Origin: a virus
Lineage: Duplodnaviria; Heunggongvirae; Uroviricota; Caudoviricetes
Direction: 5' to 3' (one strand)
DNA length: 64,000 nt
IMG/VR virus record: IMGVR_UViG_3300022660_000042
Shown here: in pieces, positions 836 through 28,838 of the stretch
Numbering within the stretch: the stretch's first letter is position 1
Layout of the letters: each line of letters begins with the position of its first letter
The notes under the pieces: generated by a model
The model's database searches: none
The model's input: the letters and a program-made list of their open reading frames with translations, nothing else
Told to the model about the DNA's origin: nothing
Program-made: the position numbers and the translations under genes

Positions 836-871
836 AAAATAAAAAAGATTCCTGTGAGCGACACAGGAATC
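836..871 (-). terminator. Attenuator terminator 1
   Basis: GATTCCTGTG-loop-CACAGGAATC + T-tract, between leader ORF and tRNA-Asp. Confidence 0.85.
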
Positions 872-897
872 AATCTAAAACTTTTTACAGTTAAAAA

Positions 898-999
898 CTA
901 GATGACCCTGTGCTTGTGTCGATCCTTATCATGCTTACCGAAACCTCGTCCGTCGCGGCGAGTCTTGCAATCATGAGTGTCAACTACAAACTTAGTCAT
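898..999 (-). CDS. Putative attenuator leader peptide MTKFVVDTHDCKTRRDGRGFGKHDKDRHKHRVI (D/R/K/H/G-rich)
   Basis: AGGAAAAA SD before ATG 999; the track start at 1131 overlaps a tRNA; GCACAGGGTC at 904-913 can pair with the terminator 5' arm. Confidence 0.75.
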   Translation of the reverse strand: MTKFVVDTHDCKTRRDGRGFGKHDKDRHKHRVI

Positions 1000-1072
1000 T
1001 TCGTTTTTCCTTTCTATTATATATAAAAATTTTTTTCCTGTTTTCGCAAAATAAACAGCGAGCAGTAACTTG

Positions 1073-1146
1073 TGGAAATAAGAGTTGGACTCGAACCAAC
1101 GATCTTTGCATTGCTGCAACGCTCTAACCAACTGAGCTATCTCATT
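1073..1146 (-). tRNA. Atypical tRNA (Cys-like GCA, T73, encoded CCA) with a 4-6 nt anticodon loop
   Basis: Good acceptor, D and T arms; anticodon arm TTGCA-GCAA-TGCAA. Confidence 0.6.
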
Positions 1147-1193
1147 GATTATAGGAACCGCTTGTGCTGTTCTATTGTGTTTTAACGTTGTTA

Positions 1194-1222
1194 AATATAG
1201 TAAAGTTTTTTCCTTTTGTAAA
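1194..1222 (-). promoter_or_regulatory. sigma70-like promoter TTTACA-N17-TATATT
   Basis: Consensus repeated throughout the window. Confidence 0.75.
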
Positions 1223-1258
1223 CCCTATTTTTAAAAAATTTTTTAAGTTCTGTATTTC

Positions 1259-1576
1259 CTAAAGTTTATTTAATGCTATTTCAGTATCAAGTCCCATTAC
1301 ACGAAGCCTAATCTTGGCCGGATCTTTCAACTTCAGGATGTCTTCGATTATATCCAAACTTTTTGCTATGAAAATTGGCATACACCAGATTTGAGACTTC
1401 GATTTATAATCTTCATACAGAATTAACTGCCAGATAACGTTATCAGATGCCAATCCCGTTGCATAAATCCCATCGTTAATGTTTTTCGGATATAAGTATA
1501 AATCTCCAGACTCATTAATGATTCTCTGGAGAACTTCCATCTTGGCGAACGCACGTTTTACATTGTTTTTTGTCAT
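1259..1576 (-). CDS. hypothetical protein
   Basis: ORF track, tightly packed minus-strand run. Confidence 0.7.
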   Translation of the reverse strand: MTKNNVKRAFAKMEVLQRIINESGDLYLYPKNINDGIYATGLASDNVIWQLILYEDYKSKSQIWCMPIFIAKSLDIIEDILKLKDPAKIRLRVMGLDTEIALNKL

Positions 1577-1884
1577 AGCACCTTGTCCAGCATAATTTCC
1601 AGTTTCATATTTTCATATTTGGCCTTGAGACGGTCAAACGTTTTGCACTTGTGAATTTCTGGAATTAACTTTAACAATAAGTTCTTTTCTTCACTGTATT
1701 TAATTACCAAATCATTTCCAAGTTCATATTTATTGGTTACATCTTGAAACCGGATATAATCAGAGTAAACATGCATTTCAATATTATTAAACTTACGGAA
1801 TGTAGCATAGTTATGACGATAGTCAAGGGCAAAATTTTCCTTGGCCAATAACTTATCTACTTTTTCTTGAAAACGTGATAACAT
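1573..1884 (-). CDS. hypothetical protein
   Basis: ORF track; follows promoter at 1892-1920. Confidence 0.7.
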   Translation of the reverse strand: MLSRFQEKVDKLLAKENFALDYRHNYATFRKFNNIEMHVYSDYIRFQDVTNKYELGNDLVIKYSEEKNLLLKLIPEIHKCKTFDRLKAKYENMKLEIMLDKVL

Positions 1885-1891
1885 ATTTTAT

Positions 1892-1924
1892 AAAATAGAA
1901 AAAAGGTTGACTTTCGTCAACCCT
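1892..1924 (-). terminator. Terminator hairpin overlapping a promoter (TTGACG in the stem)
   Basis: GGTTGAC-GAAA-GTCAACC-T6; -35 to -10 spacing 17. Confidence 0.75.
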
Positions 1925-1946
1925 TTAATATTTCCAGGAATTAAAT

Positions 1947-2171
1947 TTAGATTTTCTCATTTTCTTTTTTAAGTGCATTTCCGAGTTTTTCGATGTCATT
2001 GACAAATAGCTGAACAATTTCATCTACAGTTCCAAGTGGAACCATGCCATTATCAGATTTCAACTTGAATAGCTTATCTTTCAGCTCATCTGACACAAAT
2101 TCGGTCCAGACGTGTTTTGGAAAATTTCCAATATTTTCTTCATTAGTTATATCTTCCAATACTTTGTTCAT
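1947..2171 (-). CDS. hypothetical protein
   Basis: ORF track. Confidence 0.65.
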   Translation of the reverse strand: MNKVLEDITNEENIGNFPKHVWTEFVSDELKDKLFKLKSDNGMVPLGTVDEIVQLFVNDIEKLGNALKKENEKI

Positions 2172-2422
2172 TATTTAATCTCTTTTACTTGAACCGTGGC
2201 ATCTATTTCACCAAGAAATAACTCATTCATTGATGCACTATAATATGACTTACTTTTTACACAGTAAGACATCTTACTCTTTGCTGAGCGTAAATCAGCA
2301 AAATGTGTAGCTTGGCTTAAATCAGTTACCCAACTAACATAACCCTTTTTAGAACCCCAATAATAGACTATACCATCAACAGTTCTACAAAGAATCCATG
2401 TTTTTAATTTCGCATTGAACAT
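2171..2422 (-). CDS. hypothetical protein
   Basis: ORF track. Confidence 0.65.
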   Translation of the reverse strand: MFNAKLKTWILCRTVDGIVYYWGSKKGYVSWVTDLSQATHFADLRSAKSKMSYCVKSKSYYSASMNELFLGEIDATVQVKEIK

Positions 2423-2425
2423 TAC

Positions 2426-2884
2426 TTACCATCCATTGGAATGCTTTATTTGCTCATAACGGTCCACAACAGCACTCGTCACTGCTCTTTGTGTACGTTC
2501 ATTTATACCGGATAGAGTCTTCGGTTCGACAATACTGTATTCTCTTGTAGTGTCATTATACCTAAGATTGAGACCCTTGAAAGTCAGGAACCAAGTATCG
2601 TTCGTAACCTCAACGTCGGCCATAGCAACAAGATCCGGGTCGTTAGAGGCCTCACAGAAGTCGAGACGTAAAACCTTGACCTTAATCTGGTCACTCATAG
2701 TTGCCTCCAACTTAGCCTTTGCTTTCTCGCCTTCCAGAGACGTACTGGTCCAGCCACCTTTGTCGTTCAAGTACATGACATTGACACCGGCTGTTGTACT
2801 GTTTGCAATACATGCTTCAAGGTCCTTGTCACCGATATATTCTTTTAACTCTGTGAGTTCATCAATTATTTTACTTATTTTCAT
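2426..2884 (-). CDS. Protein with a possible C-terminal SpoVG-like domain
   Basis: LVAMADVEV..LTFKGLNL..IVEP..INERTQRAVTSAVVDRY resembles the SpoVG pattern. Confidence 0.4.
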   Translation of the reverse strand: MKISKIIDELTELKEYIGDKDLEACIANSTTAGVNVMYLNDKGGWTSTSLEGEKAKAKLEATMSDQIKVKVLRLDFCEASNDPDLVAMADVEVTNDTWFLTFKGLNLRYNDTTREYSIVEPKTLSGINERTQRAVTSAVVDRYEQIKHSNGW

Positions 2885-5423: not shown

Positions 5424-5428
5424 ATTAG

Positions 5429-5502
5429 TGGATCCAGTGGTATTCGAAACCACAACCTCCCGCTTGCAGGGCGGGTGCTCTGCCAAATTGAGCTATGAAC
5501 CC
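5429..5502 (-). tRNA. tRNA-Ala(TGC)
   Basis: Cloverleaf, G3:U70. Confidence 0.9.
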
Positions 5503-5509
5503 ATGTTAG

Positions 5510-5582
5510 TAGCGGCGTCGGGAATCGAACCCGAATGCCAGGATTGAAGGTCCCGTGAACTAAGCCGTTATTCTACGTCGCC
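5510..5582 (-). tRNA. tRNA-Glu(TTC)
   Basis: Cloverleaf, loop CC-TTC-AA. Confidence 0.85.
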
Positions 5583-5592
5583 ATAATTTTAG

Positions 5593-5665
5593 TAGTCCTA
5601 TACAGATTCGAACTGTAGTAACTTGGCTGAGAACCAAGTGGCCTTGACCGCTAGCCGATAGAACC
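5593..5665 (-). tRNA. tRNA-Glu(CTC)
   Basis: Cloverleaf, loop TT-CTC-AG. Confidence 0.85.
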
Positions 5666-5672
5666 ATATTAG

Positions 5673-5747
5673 TGCCACCGACAGGGGTCGAACCTGTGAC
5701 GCGAAGATCTTCGGTCTTCCGCTCTACCAAAACTGAGCTACAGTGGC
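5673..5747 (-). tRNA. tRNA-Phe(GAA)
   Basis: Cloverleaf. Confidence 0.9.
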
Positions 5748-5759
5748 ATATATTTTTTA

Positions 5760-5834
5760 TGGACCGTAGGAGGCTCGAACTCCTGACCCCCAGAATGCAA
5801 ATCTGGTGCTCTACCAAAACTGAGCTAACAGCCC
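5760..5834 (-). tRNA. tRNA-Ala(TGC)
   Basis: Cloverleaf, G3:U70. Confidence 0.9.
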
Positions 5835-5884
5835 GAAAATAAAACTGACCTTACTCATCTCAACGCGTACTATTGACTTTCGGT

Positions 5885-5957
5885 AAGCGCATACGGGATT
5901 CGAACCCGTGACCAGCGGCCTTCACACCGCCTGTTCTACCGCCGAACAAAATGCGTT
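5885..5957 (-). tRNA. Degenerate tRNA (His GTG or Phe GAA ambiguous)
   Basis: Good T and D arms; anticodon arm GCGG-TGTGAAGG-CCGC is irregular. Confidence 0.5.
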
Positions 5958-5968
5958 ATCAGTTTTAG

Positions 5969-6042
5969 TGGACACATATGGGATTCGAACCCATGACGTT
6001 TTCCCTGCCAGGGAAACATTCTACCAACTGAATTAATGGCCC
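5969..6042 (-). tRNA. tRNA-Ala(GGC)
   Basis: G3:U70; 1-nt bulge in acceptor; near duplicate of 6137..6210. Confidence 0.85.
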
Positions 6043-6053
6043 ATGATTTTTAG

Positions 6054-6127
6054 TAGCGCTGTCGGGACTCGAACCCGAATTTCCGACTTGAAAGGCCGGT
6101 GAACTGAACCAGTTATTCGACAGCGCC
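6054..6127 (-). tRNA. tRNA-Glu(TTC)
   Basis: Cloverleaf. Confidence 0.9.
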
Positions 6128-6136
6128 GAAATTTAG

Positions 6137-6210
6137 TGGACACATATGGGATTCGAACCCATGACGTTCTGCGTGCAAAGCAGACATTCTACCAACTGAA
6201 TTAATGGCCC
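6137..6210 (-). tRNA. tRNA-Ala(TGC)
   Basis: G3:U70; same body as 5969..6042 with a different anticodon arm. Confidence 0.85.
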
Positions 6211-6219
6211 AAATGTTAG

Positions 6220-6292
6220 TACTCCGTCCCGGATTCGAACCGGGGTTATCCGATAGAAAGTCGGATGGCTTAAACCGCTGGCCGAACGGAGC
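6220..6292 (-). tRNA. tRNA-Glu(TTC)
   Basis: Cloverleaf. Confidence 0.9.
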
Positions 6293-6303
6293 ATATTTTG
6301 TAG

Positions 6304-6377
6304 TGCCAAGTTCCGGAGTCGAACCGGATTTCTGGGATTTTCAGTCCCGTCCATTCCCACGATTGGATGCCATGGCA
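6304..6377 (-). tRNA. tRNA-Phe(GAA), atypical D arm
   Basis: Loop CT-GAA-AA; mismatches in acceptor. Confidence 0.7.
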
Positions 6378-6411
6378 TAAAAGAAAAGTTCCTGTGCTTG
6401 TGCACAGGAAC
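6378..6411 (-). terminator. Attenuator terminator 2
   Basis: GTTCCTGTGC-ACAA-GCACAGGAAC + TTTTCTTTT. Confidence 0.9.
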
Positions 6412-6436
6412 CGTTTTTAAAACTCTAATCGGTTAA

Positions 6437-6550
6437 CTACCTGATCCTATGCACTGTATTTGAATCAAATGCTTCAAACGCTGCAGCTGCAAATTCAGCT
6501 GCGGCACGTTCTGCTGCAAAAAATTCATGTTCAAATACGTTCATAGTCAT
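6437..6550 (-). CDS. Putative attenuator leader peptide MTMNVFEHEFFAAERAAAEFAAAAFEAFDSNTVHRIR
   Basis: 10 Ala, 6 Phe, 5 Glu; precedes the Ala/Glu/Phe tRNA cluster; GTGCATAGGATC (6443-6454) is complementary to the terminator 5' arm. Confidence 0.9.
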   Translation of the reverse strand: MTMNVFEHEFFAAERAAAEFAAAAFEAFDSNTVHRIR

Positions 6551-6682
6551 TTTGTTACCTTTTGTTATTATATATAAAAATTTTTTTCCTGTTTTTGCAA
6601 AAGTTTGATTCGGCCAATGGACTCCATCCAAAGTTTTACGTCAGCTCTGCACCGAATCATCTGATGCATCAGTTATGTGTTA

Positions 6683-6711
6683 AATATAGTAAAAAGTTGT
6701 TGGTTTGTAAA
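6683..6711 (-). promoter_or_regulatory. Promoter TTTACA-N17-TATATT (repeated at 6926-6954 and 7169-7197)
   Basis: Three near-identical copies in a tandem unit. Confidence 0.75.
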
Positions 6712-6734
6712 CCCCTTTTTAAAATATTTTTTCG

Positions 6735-6846
6735 TGGGGAAGGCAGGATTCGAACCTACGACACACGCCTTGGAATGGAAATAGGAACGTTATATGCATT
6801 TCTACGAAACGTAAATACCGTTGCTCTACCACTGAGCTACTTCCCC
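6735..6846 (-). tRNA. tRNA-like gene with a 40-nt structured insertion; spliced form would read ACGCC-ATTCCAA-GGCGT (TCC)
   Basis: Perfect acceptor, D and T arms; the insert contains the repeated module. Confidence 0.7.
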
Positions 6847-6976: not shown

Positions 6977-7091
6977 CCGGCGAGACTGGATTCGAACCAA
7001 TAACCCAAAGTACCCTTTAGATAGGAAGCATTGGTGCTGAAAGCGAATACTAAATCTTAAACTTTTGCTCTACCGATTGAGCTACTCGCCG
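6977..7091 (-). tRNA. tRNA-like gene with a 49-nt anticodon loop containing the module; anticodon unresolved
   Basis: CGGCGAG/CTCGCCG acceptor, AAAGT/ACTTT anticodon stem. Confidence 0.7.
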
Positions 7092-7201: not shown

Positions 7202-8539
7202 TTATTGTAACTTTTTTTCCTCCTTCAAGTTTTTTCTGGAACGTTCTTTTTGTTCTTCAAGTAACTTGTTGAAACCGTCAAGGTCAACGGTAAGGTTATG
7301 CTGTTCACAAAGCATTTGTGTCAAGTCGACAGGAAAACCATAAGTATCATAAAGCTTGAAAGAATCAAAACCAGACAATACATTTCCATCCATCTTGGAA
7401 ACAATATTGTTAAACTGCTTGATTCCGCTATCAAGGTTCTTCAAGAATCTTGATTCTTCATTCTTGATAACTTCAGTTACGAATTCTTGTCTTTCCTTAA
7501 TTTCCGGATATACGTCACCCATTACGTCGATAACAACCGGAACGAGCTTATACATAAACGGTTCATTGATATTTAACATCTTGCAGAACAAAGAACCTCT
7601 GCGAAGAAGCCTTCTCAATACATATCCGCTTCCCTTATTAGAAGGCTGAAGTCCGTCAGTAATAGAAAATACAAGAGAACGAATATGGTCACTGATAACC
7701 CTGTGAGGCGTGCCGGATTCATCATTCTTATATTCTACACCGCTAAGTTCAACAATCTTATCAATAAGTGGTTTAAACAAGTCGGTTTCATAATTACCGT
7801 TTGTATTCTGAAGAATAGAACAAATACGTTCAAATCCCATACCGGTGTCGATATTCTTCGTAGTCAACGGAATAAGCGTTCCATCAGAAAGTCTTTCTTT
7901 CTCCATGAATACAATATTCCAGATTTCTACGTAACGGTCATTTTCACCGTTTACACCAAGGATAGGATCCTTGAATGTTTCTTCTTGAGTATTCAAATCG
8001 CCACGGTCATAATGAATTTCAGAACAGGGACCGCATGGACCAGTATCACCCATTTCCCAGAAGTTATCTTTTTCTCCGAATCTCATAATACGGTCATCAG
8101 GTAGATTGGAAACTTCCTTCCAGATTTTCCAACTTTCATCATCGGTCTTATAAACAGAAACAAACAATCTTTCCTTAGGTAACTTCCATACTTTCGTTAA
8201 AAGCTCCCAAGACCAAGAAATAGATTCCTTTTTATAATAGTCATTGAAAGACCAGTTTCCAAGCATTTCAAAGAACGTATGATGATAGTTATCACGACCG
8301 ACAACATCGAGGTCATTATGCTTTCCAGATACACGTAAGCATTTCTGGCTGTTACATACACGTTTTAATCCTTGCGGGTTTTGACCAAAAAAGATTGGTT
8401 TAAACTGGTTCATTCCGGAATTCGTGAATAACAACGTCGGATCGTTATTGGGAATAACGGAAGAAGACTTGATAAACTGATGATTTTTTGACATAAAGAA
8501 ATCAATAAAACTTTTTCTAATTTCGCTCGAGGTAAGCAT
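7202..8539 (-). CDS. alaS: Alanyl-tRNA synthetase, N-terminal aminoacylation domain only (445 aa)
   Basis: DPTLLFTNSGMNQFK, SQKCLRVSGKHNDL, HHTFFEMLGNWSF, DTGMGFERI, FKLYDTYGFPVDLT; stops before the editing domain. Confidence 0.95.
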   Translation of the reverse strand: MLTSSEIRKSFIDFFMSKNHQFIKSSSVIPNNDPTLLFTNSGMNQFKPIFFGQNPQGLKRVCNSQKCLRVSGKHNDLDVVGRDNYHHTFFEMLGNWSFNDYYKKESISWSWELLTKVWKLPKERLFVSVYKTDDESWKIWKEVSNLPDDRIMRFGEKDNFWEMGDTGPCGPCSEIHYDRGDLNTQEETFKDPILGVNGENDRYVEIWNIVFMEKERLSDGTLIPLTTKNIDTGMGFERICSILQNTNGNYETDLFKPLIDKIVELSGVEYKNDESGTPHRVISDHIRSLVFSITDGLQPSNKGSGYVLRRLLRRGSLFCKMLNINEPFMYKLVPVVIDVMGDVYPEIKERQEFVTEVIKNEESRFLKNLDSGIKQFNNIVSKMDGNVLSGFDSFKLYDTYGFPVDLTQMLCEQHNLTVDLDGFNKLLEEQKERSRKNLKEEKKLQ

Positions 8540-8551
8540 TTTTATTCTCCT

Positions 8552-8587
8552 ATAAAAATTAAAAGGTTCCTGTTGTGCACAGGAACC
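8552..8587 (-). terminator. Attenuator terminator 3 (before alaS)
   Basis: GGTTCCTGT-GCACA-ACAGGAACC + TTTTAATTTTT. Confidence 0.85.
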
Positions 8588-8622
8588 AAAGTTTAGTTAA
8601 TGAATATACCCATACACATATA

Positions 8623-8682
8623 TTATGTCATAATATATGCGGCTGCTGCGAAAATGCGAGTATTTAATATATTCATCGTCAT
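8623..8682 (-). CDS. Putative alaS leader peptide MTMNILNTRIFAAAAYIMT (not in ORF track)
   Basis: Four tandem Ala codons GCA GCA GCC GCA; lies between a TATATA promoter and the terminator. Confidence 0.8.
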   Translation of the reverse strand: MTMNILNTRIFAAAAYIMT

Positions 8683-8723
8683 GTCTTAAATATATATAAT
8701 TTTTCTATTTTTGTAAATGCTTT

Positions 8724-9146
8724 TTATTCAGGATGTTTGATGTCTTCTATTTCTCGTACCATGTCTCTTTCCGGGCTTTCTGAATTTTCATCCAAATAAC
8801 GACCAGTAAGAATCATAGTATCATGGTCGGTAAATTCAAGATTCGGTTTACCTTCGGCCATATTCTCATAGTCCTCAGTAACAAGGTCTCTCCAAGAAGT
8901 ATAACCGATTTGGTCCCAATTCCTATCGAAGAATTGGACTGCATTAGTTCCAACTTCCTTGGCGACAACTGCACCGAACATTCCATCCTTTCGCATTATA
9001 GATAAACCAGAAATGAATTTACCCTTTTTGGTGGCACAAGAATGCATAATCTTCAACGGCTTATTCTCAAAAACAATTCTAAGCATACCGAAAATATCAA
9101 GTGCCTTTACCGGATGTTCAACAGTTTTAATTTCTGGAAGTTCCAT
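8724..9146 (-). CDS. hypothetical protein
   Basis: ORF track. Confidence 0.7.
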   Translation of the reverse strand: MELPEIKTVEHPVKALDIFGMLRIVFENKPLKIMHSCATKKGKFISGLSIMRKDGMFGAVVAKEVGTNAVQFFDRNWDQIGYTSWRDLVTEDYENMAEGKPNLEFTDHDTMILTGRYLDENSESPERDMVREIEDIKHPE

Positions 9147-15043: not shown

Positions 15044-15057
15044 AAAGTAAACTTAAA

Positions 15058-15240
15058 AGTGTCCGATACGATTCACATATCTTTATCACGAACTACGACA
15101 CGAAGCCCGGAGCGAACACGTTACAACTATTACGCTCATAGCCGGCCGCATTAACGCATCGGCGACGCCACACGCTCATATATAGTCATTTGCGCAAAAC
15201 TATATACTTTTACGGTTGAAGACTCCGTATCGGCATGGAT
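15058..15240 (-). ncRNA. Candidate structured ncRNA
   Basis: Terminal stem CCGATACG/CGTATCGG with internal hairpins; no ORF. Confidence 0.45.
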
Positions 15241-15251
15241 TCTTTTAAAAG

Positions 15252-15409
15252 TTGGCGGGAAGTAAAACCAATAAGAACAATGCATGTTAAAATAGGAACT
15301 TCCTGTGCCTAAAATCAAAGGGGCGCGACTCTAATGGCTCCAGCCCGAAATGAAACCCGTTTAGCTAATCCAGATTTCAAATGATGTTCGCCAAACATCT
15401 TCTCGCCAA
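15252..15409 (-). ncRNA. Structured RNA ending in a module copy (15254-15309), with an alternative terminal stem
   Basis: GGC-ACA-GGAAGT-TCCTAT...ACTTCC-C-GCC; upstream TTGGCGAGAAG can pair with CTTCCCGCCAA. Confidence 0.6.
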
Positions 15410-15414
15410 TTTTA

Positions 15415-15490
15415 TAGCGGGAGTTGGATTCGAACCAACGACCTTTGGATTATGAGCCCAACGAGCTAAACCGGACTGCTCTATCCCGCG
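15415..15490 (-). tRNA. tRNA-fMet(CAT)
   Basis: CGCGGGA acceptor, C1 unpaired, loop CT-CAT-AA. Confidence 0.85.
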
Positions 15491-15648
15491 TCAAAACTAA
15501 AAATATGGTAAGTGGCCGACACTGTTCAAGACACGCATTCAATTCCTCGTGCACTAGGCAGAACTCTGGAATTTACTTAATGTCAGCCTTAAGGCACACT
15601 TACCGTACCTACAGTCTTTTCTTTTAAGTAGAAAGAAAATATATGTAA

Positions 15649-15768
15649 AAATAAACTCAGTTGCTTTAAAGTAGAAGAACATGAAATAACTCGGCTGCTT
15701 TGAAGTAGAAGAGCTTTGAAATAACTCAGTTCTTTGAAGTAGAAGAACCTGAAATAACTCAGTTTTTT
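15649..15768. repeat. Tandem repeat, 33-35 bp unit, about 3.5 copies
   Basis: AAATAACTCAGTT(G)CTTTGAAGTAGAAGA repeated head to tail. Confidence 0.85.
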
Positions 15769-15789
15769 ATGGAAACTTTGAAAAACCGT

Positions 15790-16112
15790 TTTCAAACACA
15801 CTGCCGGAATCCCGATTCTCCACCGGCCATGACGTCTATCAACTGCACATTCTATCGGTCGACTTCTTATAGGGTACAAACTCCGTCATCTAGCATTTTA
15901 TTGATCGTCTAGCTATATCAAACTCACAAAATACTCTTCATGCCACGCTGCTACATGAATTCAGCGCTCACTAAACGTAGTATACATCGATTTCTCTATA
16001 CAAGAGGTTTAGCTCAACGCGTTGTCAGGCCAGGGCACTTACGCATTCCCGAGTGTTATCCCAGCTCTTCAGTCTTAATGATGGTGCGTCCGTCAAAAAG
16101 CACACGCGCTTA
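15790..16112 (-). ncRNA. Candidate large ncRNA
   Basis: GC-richer, no credible ORF, own TATATAAT promoter at about 16117-16130. Confidence 0.45.
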
Positions 16113-16139
16113 AGTATATTATATATAAAAAATTTCGTA

Positions 16140-16460
16140 TGCTTACAGGCGTCCTAATTGCAAGGACCGATTAAGGAGCACAACAGGTGGTTAACCCAGA
16201 GTTTCTCTCCGCTCACTCTTATTTCAAGTGGCCTCACGTGGCATATTTTAGTAGAGCCAATACTACACCTCTGCGACCATCATTCTGGTATTCATCTAGT
16301 TCGCAGAGACAGATTCCTCATCCCAGAGTTTTCCCCATCTGGGTTAGCCCGTTAGCATGAAATCAAGAATGATGCAACACGGGTTCTACTCACATACGAA
16401 ATTCATCTCTCTCCAAAAATTTCAATCTTCCGAGACACTCGGTGGTAGTCTCAATCATTT
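16140..16460 (-). ncRNA. Candidate large ncRNA
   Basis: Several hairpins (CCCAGA/TCTGGG, CTCTGCGA/TCGCAGAG, AACCCG/CGGGCT); promoter at about 16471-16499. Confidence 0.45.
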
Positions 16461-16532
16461 ACGTTATATAATATAGTAAATGTTTTTGCGTTTGTCAACC
16501 CCTTTTTATAAAAAATTTTTATTTATCCGGGC

Positions 16533-17429: not shown

Positions 17430-17505
17430 TCTCCCCTCCTGGATTCGAACCAGGGTTATTTCTGCTTGTAGGGCAGACGCCATTAACCTGCTAGGCGAAG
17501 GAGAG
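17430..17505 (-). tRNA. tRNA-Val(TAC)
   Basis: Cloverleaf, loop CC-TAC-AA. Confidence 0.8.
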
Positions 17506-17509
17506 TTAA

Positions 17510-17568
17510 GGCGGGCAGTAGTTTTGCGATAATCCTAATTCATCTGTTAAATAGGAACTGCCGTTGCC
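17510..17568 (-). ncRNA. Structured module copy just 5' of tRNA-Val
   Basis: GGC-AAC-GGCAGT-TCCTAT...ACTGCC-C-GCC. Confidence 0.7.
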
Positions 17569-17781
17569 TAAAATCTTTTTGACTATATCTTCATAGTCTC
17601 TTAATTGGCAGCCACTCTCGGACATTCAGGTGACCCATCAAGATCTTCAATTATCAGTCCTGATTTCTTACGCTTAGAGTAAGAACTCTACTATTTGGTG
17701 CCTTCCGACATATAGCGTAAATCAACATAACGTATATAGCTATATGAAACTCGTTTCCTAGCGATCTTGCTAAACTTTTAG

Positions 17782-17854
17782 TAGCGGGGGTCGGACTCGA
17801 ACCGACGACTTCAAGGTTATGAGCCTTGCTTGCTAGCCACTGCATCACCCCGCG
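17782..17854 (-). tRNA. tRNA-Met(CAT), fMet-like acceptor
   Basis: CGCGGGG acceptor, loop CT-CAT-AA. Confidence 0.85.
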
Positions 17855-17997
17855 TCAATAAAACTCGAATGTACTGTTACTGGAGGTCTCTGATTATACC
17901 AGCTCTTCCCGCAGCTGACATCCCGTTGCTGCACCCGGCTTAGCATTATAAAGAGTCTGCAGCTTCTAAATAACGCCTAACAGTATATTATTTATAG

Positions 17998-18070
17998 CGC
18001 TGGAAGAGAGAATCGAACTCCCAACTGCCTGATTACAAATCAGGTCTTCTACCTATTGAAGTATTCCAGC
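17998..18070 (-). tRNA. tRNA-Thr(TGT)
   Basis: Cloverleaf. Confidence 0.9.
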
Positions 18071-18374
18071 AAAAGGTGTAATTGTGCTTGTCAAGCTTGG
18101 TTCGATCTAGTTATCTGCAAGTAATCCCAATCGGGTGCTTTACATTAACCTGCAACCATCATGTCCCTTCGCTCCAATTACAAGAGCGTTACGTTATTAA
18201 AGCTTACGCCACGGGTAACGAACCCCCTGCACTCATATTTATGGATTGCTCCACGCGTTGTGTTGGAACCCACGCTTCCGTTTTGACACCAGTGGAATAT
18301 TCCTGGGGTTTTACTTTCGGTTAAAGCAAGTAAGTAACTTTGAGGATCACAATGCAATCGACCCACAGGTTGTA

Positions 18375-18450
18375 TCGGCGTACCTGGATTCGAACCAGGG
18401 AAACCTCTTGATCCCAAATCAAGCGCTCTACCAGACTGAGCTACACACCG
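18375..18450 (-). tRNA. tRNA-Pro(TGG)
   Basis: C1-G72, A73. Confidence 0.9.
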
Positions 18451-18502
18451 CAAGTTTTTAAGGTGGTTCCACCACCAGCTGACTACAGCTATAACGTTTT
18501 AG

Positions 18503-18575
18503 CTGTCCTTCCTGGACTCAAACCAGGGACCAAGTGATTAACAGTCACCGACTCTACCTACTGAGCTAAAGGACA
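18503..18575 (-). tRNA. tRNA-Asn(GTT)
   Basis: Cloverleaf, G73. Confidence 0.9.
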
Positions 18576-18657
18576 ATGTTTTAATCATTCATTTACGTCG
18601 TATAATATAGTAAATTATGCTCCGTTTGTAAACCCCTTTAATTAAAAAAATTTTTAA

Positions 18658-19383
18658 TCAACTGAGTTTTTCTTTAATACTTTCCCAAGTTAAATTGTTT
18701 TTATCCAATATGATTATTCGTATTCCATTCTGTTGTTGTACAATCGCAATCTTTTCAACATCAGTAATACCAAATTTTTTAGTTTTATTATTTATTAAAT
18801 AATCATTTTTTGGATCTAGATATACATCATATTCAGGAAGGTAAAAATCAGGATAATAACGATGTTTTATACCTTTAGTATCTTCCCAAATAAAATATGT
18901 AGGTCTTTCCCATTTTACTTGGTTTTCATCAAGCGTTTTTGCTACCTCAAATTCATATGTAGAATCAAGACTTGTTCCTTTATATTCTATAGTTTTTGAA
19001 GTATGCCAACCACCTAAATGACGTTCAAATGCAATTTCTCTCAGTTTTTGTTTATGCTCTTCAGATTGCGGATGACTAAAAATTCGTTTTCCTTCATCAG
19101 TTCCTTTATAACGCTCTGAAAATGTTTCACCTTGTTTCCTTACGCGTTCATCACTATCTTTAGTTAATCCTTTATTCCAAGCATAACTACCCGGAGCTAA
19201 TTTTCTTTTACCATTTTCATCTATAATATATTTTTGACTAGTTTTAATAGTATTTAAATCACATTCCTTTTTATGTTCATTTAAAAGACGTCTAGTCCTA
19301 AATATATTTTGACAAAATGGGCAAATCCAATTATTATATGCATTTGCTTGTTCTCTAACAACTTTATATCTACAATTTTTCAT
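18658..19383 (-). CDS. Putative homing endonuclease (Zn finger + NUMOD-like + PD-(D/E)xK domain)
   Basis: CPFC..H, WNKGLTK, DSTYEFEVAKTLD..RYYPDFYLPEYDVYLDPK; TATAAATA at 19388-19395. Confidence 0.75.
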   Translation of the reverse strand: MKNCRYKVVREQANAYNNWICPFCQNIFRTRRLLNEHKKECDLNTIKTSQKYIIDENGKRKLAPGSYAWNKGLTKDSDERVRKQGETFSERYKGTDEGKRIFSHPQSEEHKQKLREIAFERHLGGWHTSKTIEYKGTSLDSTYEFEVAKTLDENQVKWERPTYFIWEDTKGIKHRYYPDFYLPEYDVYLDPKNDYLINNKTKKFGITDVEKIAIVQQQNGIRIIILDKNNLTWESIKEKLS

Positions 19384-19425
19384 ATTGTATTTATATGAGT
19401 TGGTAGAGCAGTTGTTTATTTTTTA

Positions 19426-19496
19426 CGCTTCCACCTGGACTCGAACCAAGAAATCCGGACTACTAAACCGGCATTTTACCATTGAATTATAGAAGC
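19426..19496 (-). tRNA. tRNA-Thr(AGT)
   Basis: Loop TT-AGT-AG; A34. Confidence 0.75.
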
Positions 19497-19505
19497 TAAA
19501 AATTT

Positions 19506-19573
19506 GGCGGGCCGTAAAACCTTTTGATTACCAATCAACTGCTCATCTGAGCTAAATAGGAACGACCTATGCC
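19506..19573 (-). ncRNA. T-armless tRNA-Thr(GGT)-like RNA closed by the structured module
   Basis: GGC-ATA-GGTCGT-TCCTAT-T-TAGCTCAGATGAGC-A-GTTGA-TTGGTAA-TCAAA...ACGGCC-C-GCC. Confidence 0.65.
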
Positions 19574-19577
19574 ATTA

Positions 19578-19660
19578 TCAGGGTAGCAGGATTCGAACCT
19601 GCGATGTCACGAGGACGCTAGCTCCCGAAGCTAGTGGCAAACCAACCTGCCGCTACCCTG
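19578..19660 (-). tRNA. tRNA-Pro(CGG) with a long variable arm
   Basis: C1-G72, A73; variable region CGTCCTCGTGACATC. Confidence 0.8.
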
Positions 19661-19674
19661 TTTTAATTTGTTCG

Positions 19675-19747
19675 TCAGAGTGGCTGGGCTCGAACCAGCG
19701 ACCCCTCGCATCCTAGGCGAGCTCTCTACCAACTGAGTTACACTCTG
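19675..19747 (-). tRNA. tRNA-Pro(AGG)
   Basis: C1-G72, A73, loop CT-AGG-AT. Confidence 0.85.
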
Positions 19748-20518
19748 TTATTCAAACACATTTACCAAATTTTTATTTGGTAAAAAATGCTTACGTTTTT
19801 GTTCATCATGTTTACTATAGATTGGAATATATTTTTTAAACTTATTATGTAAAGCAATTTTAGATATTCCAAGTTCAATAGCCATATCTTCTAGTTTGTT
19901 ATAATTACCAGAATGATATTTATTCCATAACTTTTCAGCCAATATTTTTCCATTATCATGAAGTAATTTTATCCAAGCAGCTTTATTTATTGTTATACTA
20001 TACTTACCAGATTTTTTTACTTTAATAATACTAGTTTCTCCATGAAAAAGATTTCGACCTTCAATCCAAAATGGTTCTAGTGGTTTTTCTTTAAACTTTT
20101 TAGATTCTCCAGTATTACGATTTGTATACCATTTAGTTCCAAATTGTGAATTTCTTTTTCCTGATTGGCTTATACTTGTTAATTTACTTATTGCCGTAGA
20201 AAATTCAATTCTTAATTTTTCATAAACACGCGAATTAATATATCGTTTATGATTTTCATTAATACCTTGCATTCTCCATAATGCACATAACATTTTATTT
20301 CTTTCAATAGTTCCTTTCTCATACATTTTAACAAGTAACCAATGACAGATAAAATGTTCTCTAGCAGTTAACTTAACAAGATTTTCTTTTTCGTTAGTTC
20401 CTCCTAATGATTTAGGTTGAATATGATGTTTTTCAAAATAACCTAAACTTCGCTTCCCATTTTCATTCTCCGTTTTTGCTTTTTCAATTATTTTATAATA
20501 TATGTTTTTGTAATTCAT
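19748..20518 (-). CDS. HNH homing endonuclease
   Basis: EKHHIQPKSLGG..NLVKLTAREHFICHWLL; NUMOD-like SQFGTKW. Confidence 0.9.
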   Translation of the reverse strand: MNYKNIYYKIIEKAKTENENGKRSLGYFEKHHIQPKSLGGTNEKENLVKLTAREHFICHWLLVKMYEKGTIERNKMLCALWRMQGINENHKRYINSRVYEKLRIEFSTAISKLTSISQSGKRNSQFGTKWYTNRNTGESKKFKEKPLEPFWIEGRNLFHGETSIIKVKKSGKYSITINKAAWIKLLHDNGKILAEKLWNKYHSGNYNKLEDMAIELGISKIALHNKFKKYIPIYSKHDEQKRKHFLPNKNLVNVFE

Positions 20519-20573
20519 ATATTATATATAATTTTTCATTTCCCGAACTTGCAGAATACAAGTTAACAGTTAA

Positions 20574-20657
20574 CTGATAGGGTTGGATTCGAACCAACGG
20601 CGGGCTTTCGCCAACGGCTTAACAGGCCGCCCCCTGCTACCACTCGGGTACCTACCA
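20574..20657 (-). tRNA. tRNA-Asn(GTT) with a Tyr-like body and long variable arm
   Basis: CCCGAGTGG D arm, loop CT-GTT-AA, variable TGGCGAAAGCCCGCC, G73. Confidence 0.8.
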
Positions 20658-20666
20658 ATAATTTAG

Positions 20667-20746
20667 CTGACTACAACGGACTCGAACCAATATCTCTTCT
20701 CTATGCATCGAGAAGCGCTCTGACCAAAAAATTGAGCTAGTAGCCA
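20667..20746 (-). tRNA. Atypical tRNA-like gene with a 10-nt anticodon loop
   Basis: CTTCT-CGATGCATAG-AGAAG; weak T stem. Confidence 0.5.
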
Positions 20747-20786
20747 AAAATAAAAAATCCTGTAAGTTTTTATATCTTACAGGATT
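20746..20786 (-). terminator. Attenuator terminator 4
   Basis: AATCCTGTAAG-loop-CTTACAGGATT + T-tract. Confidence 0.9.
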
Positions 20787-20821
20787 CGTTTAAATTCTCG
20801 TTTTATTCGATGAACCAAAAA

Positions 20822-20884
20822 CTAATCCTGTAGTACCTCAGGGTTATTCGGATTGACGGTATTTGTGTTCATCGTGAAAGTCAT
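20822..20884 (-). CDS. Putative attenuator leader peptide MTFTMNTNTVNPNNPEVLQD (not in ORF track)
   Basis: 5 Asn, 4 Thr, 2 Pro, 2 Val, 2 Met; CTACAGGATT at 20824-20833 is complementary to the terminator 5' arm. Confidence 0.88.
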   Translation of the reverse strand: MTFTMNTNTVNPNNPEVLQD

Positions 20885-21004
20885 TTTGTTTTCTCTCTTT
20901 TAATATTATATATAAAAATTTTTTTGTTGTTTTTGCTTTTTGTTTTAACGTTGTTAAATATAGTAAAGTTTTTTCCTTTTGTAAACCCCTAAAAAGATTT
21001 TTTT

Positions 21005-27579: not shown

Positions 27580-28074
27580 CTAAAACGGATTTTTTGCATT
27601 AAGAACAGTATCTTGAATATCAGCTACAAGAGCATCAAAACCAGAATATTCCTTCTGAATCTTCGGAAGCAACTGGTTATACGTGATTTTTCCACTGAAA
27701 ATATCCTTAATCTTCAGATACCAGATAACCTTGAAGCTCTTATCCGGTAAACGAACGCGAATCTTCAAGTCATCACGCGTCGTTTCATCCTTTTCCATAT
27801 GTTCACAGATTTCGACAGTGGAATACTTCGCGAGTTCATCCTTAATAGTATTGAATTCAGTATCTGTAAATGCTACATCCTGAGATTCCGGCGTAAAGAG
27901 TTCAGTACGGTGCATAATACAATATGCATCCATATCAAGGTCCGGTTTCTTAGCTCGAAGCGCCTGCAAGCGGTTCCATTCACGCGTATTGACCTGTTCA
28001 GGATGAGCGTTTACTGCATCGACGATATTCTGATAAAGTTTGTCCCAATGTGCCTGACGTTCTGCTGAAGCCAT
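27580..28074 (-). CDS. hypothetical protein
   Basis: Likely start MASAERQ after an AGGA SD. Confidence 0.7.
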   Translation of the reverse strand: MASAERQAHWDKLYQNIVDAVNAHPEQVNTREWNRLQALRAKKPDLDMDAYCIMHRTELFTPESQDVAFTDTEFNTIKDELAKYSTVEICEHMEKDETTRDDLKIRVRLPDKSFKVIWYLKIKDIFSGKITYNQLLPKIQKEYSGFDALVADIQDTVLNAKNPF

Positions 28075-28142
28075 AGTTTTTCCTTTTGTTAAAGTTTTTC
28101 TATAATATAATAAAAAGGTTGACATTCGTCAACCCTTTTTAG

Positions 28143-28231
28143 TGGACCCGACGAGATTCGAACTCGCGACCCATCGCTTAAAAGGCGATTGCTCTACGAT
28201 GTTGCCATCTAACCAACTGAGCTACAGATCC
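28143..28231 (-). tRNA. tRNA-Lys(TTT) with an extra hairpin in the D loop
   Basis: D loop contains GATG-GCAA-CATC. Confidence 0.8.
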
Positions 28232-28237
28232 ATATAA

Positions 28238-28325
28238 TTGAGGCGGCTGGATTTGAACCAGCGATGTGTCATTAACCGTACAGGATTCAAAGTCCCGCGC
28301 CTTCACCGGACTAGGCAACGCCTCA
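28238..28325 (-). tRNA. tRNA-Gln(TTG) with a long variable region
   Basis: T1-A72, loop CT-TTG-AA, 18-nt variable region. Confidence 0.8.
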
Positions 28326-28334
28326 ATAATTTAG

Positions 28335-28408
28335 TACCCGAGGTGAGACTCGAACTCACAGGTGCGGATTAGAAGTCCGCTCGTTTGATCCTATTAACGG
28401 ACCCGGGC
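28335..28408 (-). tRNA. tRNA-Arg(TCT)
   Basis: Loop CT-TCT-AA. Confidence 0.85.
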
Positions 28409-28414
28409 AAAATA

Positions 28415-28500
28415 TCGGCATACAAGGAGTCGAACCTTCCCGGACCGCCCTGGTGTTTGCTACGGGCCGGTTTATAAGACCGGTCCAAGGGAGTATGCCA
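28415..28500 (-). tRNA. D-armless tRNA-like RNA, anticodon TAT, large variable arm
   Basis: TGGCATA/TATGCCG, CCGGT-CTTATAA-ACCGG, T arm GAAGG-TTCGACT-CCTTG. Confidence 0.6.
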
Positions 28501-28539
28501 ATGTAGTTTGTTTAAAGTGAGTAGCTCTCTCACTGTTCG

Positions 28540-28611
28540 TGGACCTATCCAGACTCGAACTGGAATCCGAAGATTAAAAGTCTCCTCGTCTACCTATTGA
28601 CATATAGATCC
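28540..28611 (-). tRNA. tRNA-Lys(TTT)
   Basis: Cloverleaf. Confidence 0.85.
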
Positions 28612-28618
28612 AAAGTAA

Positions 28619-28694
28619 TTGGGGCAGAGAGATTCGAACTCCCGAATAACGATTTCAGAGACCGTTGCCTTAAACCAGACTTGGCGATACCCCA
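28619..28694 (-). tRNA. tRNA-Gln(CTG)
   Basis: T1-A72, loop CT-CTG-AA. Confidence 0.9.
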
Positions 28695-28699
28695 GTATA

Positions 28700-28730
28700 T
28701 AAAAAACAGTTCCTGTATTGCTACAGGAAC
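28700..28730 (-). terminator. Attenuator terminator 5
   Basis: GTTCCTGTA-GCAA-TACAGGAAC + TGTTTTTT. Confidence 0.85.
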
Positions 28731-28760
28731 CGTCTAATCAGATAAAGTGAAACTTATCGT

Positions 28761-28838
28761 CTATTCGCTACCCATAGCAAAACACACAGCAACTTGCTGT
28801 TTTCTTATCTGTTTTACTTGTTTAACGAACCTTAACAT
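28761..28838 (-). CDS. Putative attenuator leader peptide MLRFVKQVKQIRKQQVAVCFAMGSE (not in ORF track)
   Basis: 4 Gln, 3 Lys, 2 Arg (AGG/AGA), Ile ATA; TGCTATGGG at 28771-28779 is complementary to the terminator 5' arm. Confidence 0.85.
   Translation of the reverse strand: MLRFVKQVKQIRKQQVAVCFAMGSE

What the first reader, a model, noticed from the sequence alone, without database searches (positions are those of the whole stretch)
836..28838. System: five leader-peptide attenuators matched to the tRNA operons (and alaS) they precede
Seen: five units share the layout TATATA(A)T promoter, 19-37 aa ORF, a related terminator (GTTCCTGT..ACAGGAAC or AATCCTGT..ACAGGATT) with T-tract, then tRNAs or alaS. 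Each ORF ends in, or just before, a segment complementary to the terminator 5' arm. Leader composition matches the downstream genes: A/E/F (Ala x4, Glu x4, Phe x2), N/T/P/V/M (Asn, Thr, Pro, Val, Met), Q/K/R/I (Gln x2, Lys x2, Arg, Ile), D/R/K/H/G (Asp first) and AAAA (alaS). Established: this is the logic of trp/his/thr-type attenuation, where ribosome stalling frees an antiterminator. Inference: the phage senses shortage of specific charged tRNAs and switches on the matching tRNA genes. I know of no described case for phage tRNA arrays.
Basis: partly seen in the sequence, partly recalled or inferred. Interest (0 to 1): 0.97.

Follow-up and report, generated by a model that had tools for sequence, protein, structure and literature searches.

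The report
Leader-peptide attenuators gating phage tRNA arrays
In this 411-kb rumen phage, every block of tRNA genes and a phage alanyl-tRNA synthetase gene sits behind a tiny test gene written in the codons those tRNAs read, followed by a switchable transcription stop, so the phage probably makes each tRNA set only when those codons are decoded slowly, a control I could not find published for tRNA genes.

Summary
The whole genome (one contig, 411,059 bp) has two more in front of the Trp/Leu/Ser and Tyr/Cys/Met/Ser arrays, so all six arrays plus alaS are gated, and the arrays cover all 20 amino acids.

Leader codons match the anticodons behind them down to isoacceptor level:
- AAA with Lys-UUU and AAG with Lys-CUU
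- AGY with Ser-GCU and UCN with Ser-GGA/UGA/CGA
- Fisher-combined P 6e-31 against phage ORF background; the true leader-array pairing is the best of 720 permutations

The 3' end of every ORF pairs with the terminator 5' arm, and this pairing covaries where terminators differ.

In related rumen phage contigs the leaders change with the arrays. tRNA-Cys moved from the Tyr array to the Trp/Leu array, and the Cys codons moved with it. Gln-CUG gains come with new CAG codons.

No Rfam leader or T-box family matches, and no paper was found. Earlier notes of this scan report the same logic in other, unrelated phages.

The mechanism is inferred from sequence. Translation and codon-dependent read-through are untested.

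The parts
28917..28926 (-). Upstream promoter P1 of the Q/K/R/I unit (GGTTTACAAA, -35 part of a TTTACA-N17-TATATT type promoter)
28859..28868 (-). P2 box TATATATAAT of the Q/K/R/I unit
28761..28838 (-). Leader ORF, 25 codons, MLRFVKQVKQIRKQQVAVCFAMGSE. Control codons are AAA x3, CAA x2, CAG x2, AGA, AGG, ATA.
28765..28779 (-). Antiterminator segment (TGCTATGGGTAGCGA) pairing with the terminator 5' arm, -12.9 kcal/mol
28700..28732 (-). Intrinsic terminator (CGGTTCCTGTA / TACAGGAACTG) plus T tract
28142..28694 (-). Array: Gln(CTG), Lys(TTT), Ile(TAT)-like with insert, Arg(TCT), Gln(TTG), Lys(TTT) with insert
20978..20987 (-). P1 promoter of the N/T/P/V/M unit
20905..20918 (-). P2 box TTTTTATATATAAT of the N/T/P/V/M unit
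20822..20884 (-). Leader ORF, 20 codons, MTFTMNTNTVNPNNPEVLQD
20825..20833 (-). Antiterminator CTACAGGAT, last codons of the ORF
20746..20787 (-). Terminator AATCCTGTAAG / CTTACAGGATT plus T tract
17430..20745 (-). Array with inserted ORFs: odd tRNA-like gene, Asn, Pro(AGG), Pro(CGG), Thr(AGT), Asn, Pro(TGG), Thr(TGT), Met, Val(TAC)
8689..8698 (-). P2-like box TATATATATT of the alaS unit. The ATG follows within about 6 nt, so the mRNA is nearly leaderless.
8623..8682 (-). Leader ORF, 19 codons, MTMNILNTRIFAAAAYIMT, with four tandem Ala codons
8609..8618 (-). Antiterminator TGTGTATGGG, 4 nt after the stop codon. It pairs with CCTGTGCACA through G:U pairs and is the weakest of the seven.
8552..8587 (-). 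Terminator GGTTCCTGT / ACAGGAACC plus T tract
7202..8539 (-). alaS, catalytic domain only (445 aa)
6704..6713 (-). P1 promoter of the A/E/F unit
6567..6580 (-). P2 box of the A/E/F unit
6437..6550 (-). Leader ORF, 37 codons, MTMNVFEHEFFAAERAAAEFAAAAFEAFDSNTVHRIR
6442..6455 (-). Antiterminator AGTGCATAGGATCA, -17 kcal/mol with the terminator 5' arm
6378..6411 (-). Terminator GTTCCTGTGC / GCACAGGAAC plus T tract
5428..6376 (-). Array: Phe, Glu, Ala, Glu, Ala(GGC), odd tRNA, Ala, Phe, Glu(CTC), Glu, Ala
1215..1224 (-). P1 promoter of the D/R/K/G/H unit. An odd tRNA-like gene (1073-1146) lies between P1 and P2.
1016..1029 (-). P2 box of the D/R/K/G/H unit
898..999 (-). Leader ORF, 33 codons, MTKFVVDTHDCKTRRDGRGFGKHDKDRHKHRVI. 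All five Lys codons are AAG.
903..914 (-). Antiterminator AGCACAGGGTCA
838..870 (-). Terminator GATTCCTGTG / CACAGGAATC plus T tract
764..835 (-). tRNA-Asp, first gene of the array. The array runs on beyond the window start as Asp, Arg(ACG), Lys(CTT) x2, Gly x3, His (locus L001).

Best explanation
These are ribosome-mediated (leader-peptide) transcription attenuators, seven in the genome. Each controls one tRNA gene array or the phage alaS.

Proposed working:
- Transcription starts at a TATATATAAT-type promoter, or at a sigma-70-like promoter 60-200 nt further upstream.
- A ribosome translates the 19-37 codon leader.
- If it slows on the central control codons, which are those read by the tRNAs encoded just downstream, the last codons of the ORF stay uncovered. 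They pair with the 5' arm of the terminator, and RNA polymerase reads through into the tRNA genes.
- If decoding is fast, the ribosome reaches the stop codon and sits on that segment. The terminator hairpin then forms and the transcript ends 10-13 nt before the first tRNA.

The output, tRNA or AlaRS, restores decoding of the very codons that are sensed. This makes a negative feedback loop on decoding capacity, resolved to the isoacceptor.

Shown from sequence: the anatomy, the codon-anticodon match, the alternative pairings, and the joint change of leader and array in relatives.

Inferred: translation of the leaders, coupling to RNA polymerase, and the natural trigger. The likely trigger is a shortage of particular tRNAs during infection, for example from host tRNA decay or cleavage. 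Amino-acid shortage would also trigger it.
For: 1. Architecture. Five TCCTGT..ACAGGA terminators occur in the window against 0.01 expected. Each follows a short ATG ORF behind a TATATATA(A/T)T box. A genome-wide scan finds the same layout before the two remaining arrays, with different terminator sequences. A promoter-blind scan of both strands gives only 10 candidates, half of them these units.

2. Codon match.
- The leader x array matrix has a diagonal of 0.38-0.68 against about 0.09 off the diagonal, and the true pairing is the best of 720 permutations.
- Against phage ORF background, per-unit P runs from 1e-3 to 3e-11, Fisher 6e-31.
- All 23 amino-acid/array cells with a tRNA have at least one leader codon, mean 4.2 against 0.72 for cells without a tRNA, Spearman 0.64.
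- Isoacceptor level: Lys AAA x3 with Lys(TTT) against AAG x5 with Lys(CTT), P 0.018. Ser AGY x5 with Ser(GCT) against TCN x5 with Ser(GGA/TGA/CGA), P 0.008. CGC/CGA go with Arg(ACG) and AGA/AGG with Arg(TCT).
- An AAAA run before alaS occurs in 0.06% of 19-residue windows of phage ORFs.

3. Switch.
- The antiterminator duplex is -11 to -17 kcal/mol. Its 3' end lies within about 5 nt of the ORF end or just past the stop codon, up to 17 nt past it in alaS.
- Shuffle P is 0.001-0.045 per unit.
- The cross-pairing matrix is diagonal for units with different terminator arms.
- The transcript was cut before the 3' arm and a 29-nt ribosome mask applied. The 5' arm is then sequestered for A-site positions across the control codons and released once the mask reaches the last 5-8 codons.
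- The full transcript without a ribosome folds into the terminator.

4. Comparative evidence, from rumen contigs found through the shared promoter.
- tRNA-Cys lies in the Tyr array and Cys x3-4 in its leader in clade I. In clade II it lies in the Trp/Leu array with Cys x2 in that leader and none in the Tyr leader.
- Gln(CTG) is gained in the clade II Trp/Leu array together with CAG x2, and in the L102 Tyr array together with QQ.
- Met x2 goes with MM.
- Ile(GAT) in the L096 Ala/Glu array goes with Ile x5.
- Terminator arm, 3' arm and antiterminator change together: CCCAC/GTGGG against CCTAC/GTAGG.
- Leader indels are multiples of three.
- In the alaS leader of a 94%-identical relative, five replacements fall outside the Ala run, two synonymous changes inside it, and two compensatory pairs in the terminator.

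5. Contigs from RNA libraries of four studies run unbroken across leader, terminator and first tRNAs or the alaS start. This is weak evidence, because DNA carry-over is not excluded.
Against: - There is no direct evidence of translation or of conditional termination. The host is uncultured and unknown.
- Two leaders (N/T/P and alaS) lack a clear SD.
- The match is not perfect. Val x4 in the Q/K/R leader and Arg (CGT x2) in the Trp/Leu leader have no tRNA in their arrays. The G004 Ala/Glu/Phe leader has four Ile codons but no Ile tRNA was detected in its array.
- At equilibrium the terminator wins in most ribosome positions, so the switch needs kinetic, co-transcriptional control as in trp.
- The state without any ribosome is ambiguous. 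The antiterminator forms in 4 of 7 truncated transcripts.
- The alaS antiterminator is weak and rich in G:U pairs, and the model barely discriminates there.
- In this genome the Tyr/Cys/Met/Ser leader carries an in-frame TAA at codon 9, so that unit may be deregulated here.
- Relatives share ancestry, so only the handful of co-changes count as independent.
Confidence: 0.85

Rival explanations
1. The mechanism is the same ribosome-mediated attenuator, but the physiological signal is amino-acid starvation or a general slowing of translation, or the units act as a timer of infection. They would not be a homeostat for tRNA supply.
For: Classical attenuators read charged tRNA and cannot tell lack of amino acid from lack of tRNA. 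The alaS unit fits charge sensing. Nothing in the sequence fixes the trigger.
Against: Codon choice follows the anticodons present and not just the amino acid: AAA against AAG, AGY against UCN, CGN against AGR. Leaders follow gains and moves of single tRNA genes. Making more tRNA does not relieve amino-acid shortage, so such wiring would give little benefit.
Confidence: 0.2
2. Sensing is direct RNA-tRNA, T-box-like, without translation. Uncharged tRNAs would pair with the codon-like triplets of the leader RNA and stabilise the antiterminator.
For: The output is tRNA-related genes, as for many T-boxes. Triplets complementary to the anticodons are abundant.
Against: No T-box or other Rfam leader family matches even at E up to 1. 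The triplets lie in one frame of an ATG-to-stop ORF, mostly with an SD. Indels among homologues are multiples of three and the stop codon always abuts the antiterminator. Ten to twenty different specifiers per leader is unlike any T-box.
Confidence: 0.03
3. The short ORFs encode small proteins or are chance ORFs. The hairpins are ordinary, leaky terminators, and the tRNAs are made by constitutive read-through or from the upstream promoters. The composition match would be incidental.
For: The Trp/Leu/Ser leader looks like a hydrophobic signal or membrane peptide. Short ORFs are common in AT-rich DNA.
Against: The match is far beyond chance and is specific to each array. Peptide sequences drift while control-codon identity and RNA pairing are kept. 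The antiterminator sits at the same place relative to the stop codon in seven unrelated leaders. A terminator 10-13 nt before the first tRNA of every array makes no sense without conditional read-through.
Confidence: 0.03

Closest known systems
Multivalent leader-peptide attenuators of enterobacterial amino-acid operons (trpL, hisL, leuL, thrL, pheL, ilvGMEDA leader)
   Same: There is a short translated leader rich in control codons. A terminator and antiterminator compete, the ribosome position decides, and the stop codon lies next to the antiterminator segment. Several amino acids are sensed by one leader, as in thr and ilv.
   Different: The regulated genes are tRNA genes, not biosynthetic enzymes. 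Three to six amino acids are sensed per leader, matched to the anticodons downstream. There are seven paralogous units in one phage genome that together cover all 20 amino acids. There is no sequence relation to the Rfam leader families. The feedback acts on tRNA supply.
pheST attenuator (pheM leader) of E. coli phenylalanyl-tRNA synthetase
   Same: In the alaS unit, a run of codons for the cognate amino acid in a short leader sits before a terminator and a synthetase gene.
   Different: The amino acid is Ala and the gene is a truncated phage alaS. The unit belongs to a family whose other members control tRNA arrays. The antiterminator lies just after the stop codon and is weak.
T-box riboswitches
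   Same: They sense the state of a specific tRNA and switch a terminator/antiterminator before aminoacyl-tRNA synthetase and related genes.
   Different: T-boxes bind tRNA directly with one specifier codon and a conserved T-box motif, without translation. None of these features is present here.
tRNA gene arrays of large phages (T4, T5, vibriophages, mycobacteriophages, huge phages)
   Same: These are clustered phage tRNA genes thought to sustain translation when host tRNAs are unsuited or degraded.
   Different: To my knowledge, and in five literature searches, no leader-peptide control of such arrays is described. Here the arrays are sorted by amino acid and each is gated by a matching sensor.

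Membership tests
Leader-peptide (trp-type) transcription attenuator | Short ORF with start codon and ribosome-binding site directly upstream of the regulated genes | tested here: met
   Seven ATG ORFs of 19-37 codons. Five have an SD-like motif at -18 to -5, one has GAGAG, and one is nearly leaderless.
Leader-peptide (trp-type) transcription attenuator | Control codons enriched for the amino acid(s) tied to the regulated genes | tested here: met
   Fisher P 6e-31, best of 720 permutations, specific to the isoacceptor.
Leader-peptide (trp-type) transcription attenuator | Intrinsic terminator between the leader and the regulated genes | tested here: met
   GC-rich hairpins of -10 to -17 kcal/mol with T tracts. 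The first tRNA starts 10-13 nt later in five of the six array units and about 90 nt later in the Tyr/Cys/Met/Ser unit.
Leader-peptide (trp-type) transcription attenuator | Antiterminator mutually exclusive with the terminator and masked by a ribosome at the stop codon | tested here: met
   It covaries with the terminator arm across units and clades. The alaS case is weak.
Leader-peptide (trp-type) transcription attenuator | Anti-antiterminator (1:2 pairing) giving termination when the leader is not translated | tested here: inconclusive
   The full-length MFE shows the ORF 5' part paired with its 3' end in all seven units. In transcripts cut before the 3' arm, the antiterminator still wins without a ribosome in 4 of 7.
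Leader-peptide (trp-type) transcription attenuator | Leader is translated and read-through depends on the control codons in vivo | not testable with these tools
   Only RNA-library contigs bridging the units are available. They show neither ends nor translation.
Rfam leader families (Trp_leader, His_leader, Leu_leader, Thr_leader, Phe_leader) | Match to the family covariance model | tested here: not met
   Only tRNA-clan matches and a few chance sub-threshold hits at E up to 1 over window 700-29000; no leader family. The units work like these families but are not members by descent.
T-box riboswitch (RF00230) | Stem I with specifier loop and conserved T-box antiterminator motif | tested here: not met
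   No match at gathering score or at E up to 1.

The most novel reading that the evidence does not exclude
Large phages run an isoacceptor-resolved homeostat for their own tRNA supply. All 20 amino acids are partitioned among a few arrays. Each array is switched on by a codon-matched leader peptide only when decoding of its codons slows, for example after host tRNA decay or cleavage by anticodon nucleases. The leaders co-evolve with the arrays as tRNA genes move. The design recurs in unrelated phage lineages, as earlier notes of this scan suggest, so it would be a general, undescribed layer of phage gene control and a natural sensor set for the state of the tRNA pool.
Probability: 0.6. Interest if true: 0.93.

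Novelty: new variant of a known kind. Interest (0 to 1): 0.88.

Why it matters
Phage tRNA genes are usually discussed only in terms of codon usage or of replacing degraded host tRNAs. How they are controlled is essentially unknown.

If these units work as inferred, a phage measures decoding speed codon by codon and answers by making exactly the tRNAs that are short. That would extend a textbook mechanism to a new class of target. It would explain why tRNA genes in such phages are sorted by amino acid. It also gives directly testable predictions through codon swaps in seven natural sensors.

The leaders could serve as compact reporters of the availability of individual isoacceptors. They bear on the arms race around tRNA-cleaving defence systems as well.

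Tried and rejected
- GenBank phages: blastn of the alaS and A/E/F region found only generic tRNA and alaS similarity, no relative.
- alaS peptide patterns in IMG/VR: nothing.
Only four (L069, L095, L096, L102) were useful.
- alaS homologues of similar length in long contigs (P0016, P0069) turned out to be bacterial genes split by frameshifts. L163 (64% identity) has no leader.
- An apparent ochre-suppressor call by ARAGORN with introns (genome 127795-127884) is better read as Lys(TTT) with an insert. It does not explain the in-frame TAA.
- Equilibrium folding of complete transcripts with ribosome masks favours the terminator almost everywhere. It was replaced by folding of transcripts cut before the 3' arm.
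- The sixth TTTTTATATATAAT at 16118-16131 has no leader ORF and is not a unit.
- Pfam and PHROG scans of the genes behind the candidate eighth unit gave no function.
- RNA-library contigs cannot show transcript ends or levels. Parts without cover were ignored.
- The scan's look-up for look-alike stretches in other windows found none.

Full report
**Setting.** All features lie on the minus strand of the window. ARAGORN and Rfam find about 30 tRNA genes in four groups, a tmRNA and a cow-rumen-2 RNA. The window is part of a single 411,059-bp contig classed as a virus record, at positions 92026-156025, reversed. The G+C content is 32-44%.

**Observation.** Reading the four array heads and the region before ORF 7202-8539 shows the same layout five times:
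- a sigma-70-like promoter (GGTTTACAAA ... TACTATATT; a weaker variant before alaS);
- a second box TATATATA(A/T)T 60-200 nt downstream;
- an ATG ORF of 19-37 codons;
- 31-60 nt of spacer;
- a GC-rich hairpin with a T tract.

The hairpin core TCCTGT-N-ACAGGA occurs exactly five times in 64 kb, against 0.01 expected. The first tRNA begins 10-13 nt after the T tract, so there is no room for a promoter. ORF 7202-8539 is the catalytic domain of alanyl-tRNA synthetase (Pfam 1e-183). A sixth copy of the promoter box at 16118-16131 heads an ORF-free stretch and is not a unit.

**Beyond the window.**
- The Asp array continues as Asp, Arg(ACG), Lys(CTT) x2, Gly x3, His.
- Two more complete units precede the remaining arrays.
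  - MKTLSLTLLLLSSLLLSWLLRRSLVGTK precedes Trp, Leu x6, Ser(GCT).
  - A 31-codon leader rich in Tyr, Cys, Ser, Met and Ile precedes Tyr x2, Cys, Met, Ile(GAT)-like x2, Ser(GGA/TGA/CGA).
  - Their terminators have different sequences (GGTTCCCAC.., GGCGTCAC..), and the ORF ends carry the matching complements.
- So all six arrays and alaS are gated, and the arrays together cover all 20 amino acids.

**Codon match.**
- I used only default ARAGORN calls. The fraction of leader codons readable by an array is then 0.38-0.68 on the diagonal of the 6 x 6 matrix and about 0.09 off it. The true pairing is the best of all 720 permutations.
- Against 88,000 codons of long phage ORFs, the per-unit binomial P runs from 1e-3 to 3e-11. 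Fisher's combined P is 6e-31. At most 90 of 20,000 random in-frame windows reach the observed value for any unit.
- A T-arm-anchored anticodon caller agreed with ARAGORN in 31 of 31 cases. It added Lys(TTT), Pro(CGG), Phe(GAA) and Arg(ACG) without reference to the leaders.
- Every one of the 23 amino-acid/array cells with a tRNA has codons in its leader, mean 4.2 against 0.72.
- The match is at anticodon level.
  - AAA only goes with Lys(TTT), and AAG only with Lys(CTT).
  - AGY only goes with Ser(GCT), and UCN only with Ser(GGA/TGA/CGA).
  - CGC/CGA go with Arg(ACG), and AGA/AGG with Arg(TCT).
- Matching codons sit in the middle of each leader. The first 3-5 codons and the last 5-8 codons do not match.

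**Switch.**
- In every unit the last codons of the ORF can pair with the terminator 5' arm at -11 to -17 kcal/mol, similar to the terminators themselves. In alaS the pairing segment lies just after the stop codon instead.
- The 3' end of this segment lies within a few nucleotides of the stop codon.
- Dinucleotide shuffles reach the observed energy in 0.1-4.5% of trials per unit.
- Pairing each ORF end with each terminator arm gives a diagonal for the units whose arms differ.
- Complete transcripts without a ribosome fold into an ORF-internal hairpin plus the terminator.
- I then cut transcripts before the 3' arm, as during synthesis, and masked 29 nt for a ribosome. The 5' arm is sequestered for A-site positions over the control codons. 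It is released once the ribosome enters the last 5-8 codons or sits at the stop.
- The boundary falls just after the last control codon in six units. alaS discriminates poorly.
- At equilibrium the terminator wins, so kinetic control is required, as in trp.

**Relatives.** The upstream promoter 19-mer retrieves rumen phage contigs from IMG/VR and metagenomes. Four more came from the second promoter box. Whole contigs were fetched and scanned.

| Change in the array | Change in the leader |
|---|---|
| tRNA-Cys is in the Tyr array in clade I | Tyr leader has 3-4 Cys codons; Trp/Leu leader has none |
| tRNA-Cys is in the Trp/Leu array in clade II | Trp/Leu leader has 2 Cys codons; Tyr leader has none |
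| Clade II Trp/Leu array gained Gln(CTG) | Leader gained two Gln codons (CAG) |
| L102 Tyr array ends with Gln(CTG) | Leader has QQ |
| Clade II Tyr array has Met x2 | Leader has MM plus M |
| L096 Ala/Glu array has Ile(GAT), Phe(GAA), Val(GAC) | Leader has five Ile codons |

- Terminator arm, its partner and the antiterminator change together (CCCAC/TGGG/GTGGG to CCTAC/TAGG/GTAGG).
- Leader length differences are multiples of three.
- In a contig whose alaS is 94% identical, the leader has five replacements outside the Ala run, two synonymous changes inside it, an unchanged antiterminator, and two compensatory pairs in the terminator.
- Counter-example: the G004 Ala/Glu/Phe leader has four Ile codons but no Ile tRNA was found in its array.

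**The in-frame TAA.** The Tyr/Cys/Met/Ser leader of this genome, and of the identical L008, has TAA at codon 9. L142 and L155 have a Ser codon there in an otherwise identical leader, and L102 and clade II have intact ORFs. This looks like a recent nonsense change. Modelling suggests it would leave the antiterminator free, giving constitutive read-through.

**Expression.** Four runs filed as RNA (one only guessed to be RNA), from four studies, hold contigs that run unbroken through leader, terminator and the first tRNAs. One example spans 6215-6637. Another spans 6234-6554 and ends 5 nt upstream of the leader's ATG at 6550. Others cover 761-1207 and leader-terminator-alaS at 8517-8747. Contigs show neither ends nor strand, and DNA carry-over is possible, so this is only compatible evidence.

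**Comparison with known systems.**
- The logic is that of trp/his/leu/thr/ilv/pheA attenuators. For alaS it is that of the pheST leader.
- No Rfam leader family or T-box matches, even at E up to 1. The units therefore work like these systems without being members by descent.
- Five full-text searches found no description of leader-peptide control of tRNA genes or phage tRNA arrays.
- Earlier notes of this scan report the same design in several other, unrelated phage genomes. They are unchecked here and are not counted as evidence. No look-alike DNA was found among scanned windows.

**Verdict.** I put the confidence that these are functional ribosome-mediated attenuators of tRNA arrays at about 0.85. 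Whether they sense loss of tRNA or lack of amino acid remains open. This is a new variant of a known kind of control, and of high interest.

Noticed in passing
window 45405-45575 (-): Possible eighth unit. It has a TATATATAAT box and a 23-codon ORF (MIIRKYDISSSSKSHIAACFVVF) with a Ser run. GCGGCTT in the ORF is complementary to the arm of the following terminator (AAGCCGC). Three ORFs of unknown function follow (one PHROG hit is weakly MazG-like).
   Followed up: partly
genome 212323-212325 (locus L003 about 324-326), outside the window: There is an in-frame TAA at codon 9 of the Tyr/Cys/Met/Ser leader in this genome and in L008. L142 and L155 have Ser there. This is probably a recent nonsense change that deregulates the array.
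   Followed up: partly
window 14900-16500 (-): A 1.6-kb stretch without ORFs carries both promoter types (16491-16500, 16118-16131) and about four 35-nt direct repeats at 15660-15790. No Rfam family matches. It is probably one or more unknown RNAs.
   Followed up: no
window 1073-1146, 5885-5957, 6735-6846, 6977-7091, 14931-15043, 28415-28501 (-): Unconventional tRNA-like genes. Some have six-base anticodon loops, and others carry inserts of 30-45 nt or long extra arms. Two of them (6735-6846 and 6977-7091) have their own promoter and a recurring GTTCCTAT motif. One sits between the two promoters of the Asp unit.
   Followed up: no
window 7202-8539 (-): The phage alaS has only the aminoacylation domain (445 aa). 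Its nearest cellular homologues are from Fibrobacter and Chitinispirillaceae (59-61% identity), which hints at the host lineage.
   Followed up: partly
window 2-720 and 19748-20532 (-): ORFs inserted inside the arrays each carry their own TATATATAAT box. One is an HNH endonuclease-like ORF at 2-706 and another is a 256-aa ORF at 19748-20518. They look like mobile insertions with independent expression.
   Followed up: no
window 38451-38804 and 35239-35342 (-): A phage-encoded tmRNA (tag ANTYAMAA) and a cow-rumen-2 RNA lie upstream of the arrays.
   Followed up: no
whole genome: The six gated arrays together carry tRNAs for all 20 amino acids, sorted so that each amino acid belongs to one array. 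Ser, Lys, Arg and Met are exceptions and are split by anticodon or copy.
   Followed up: yes
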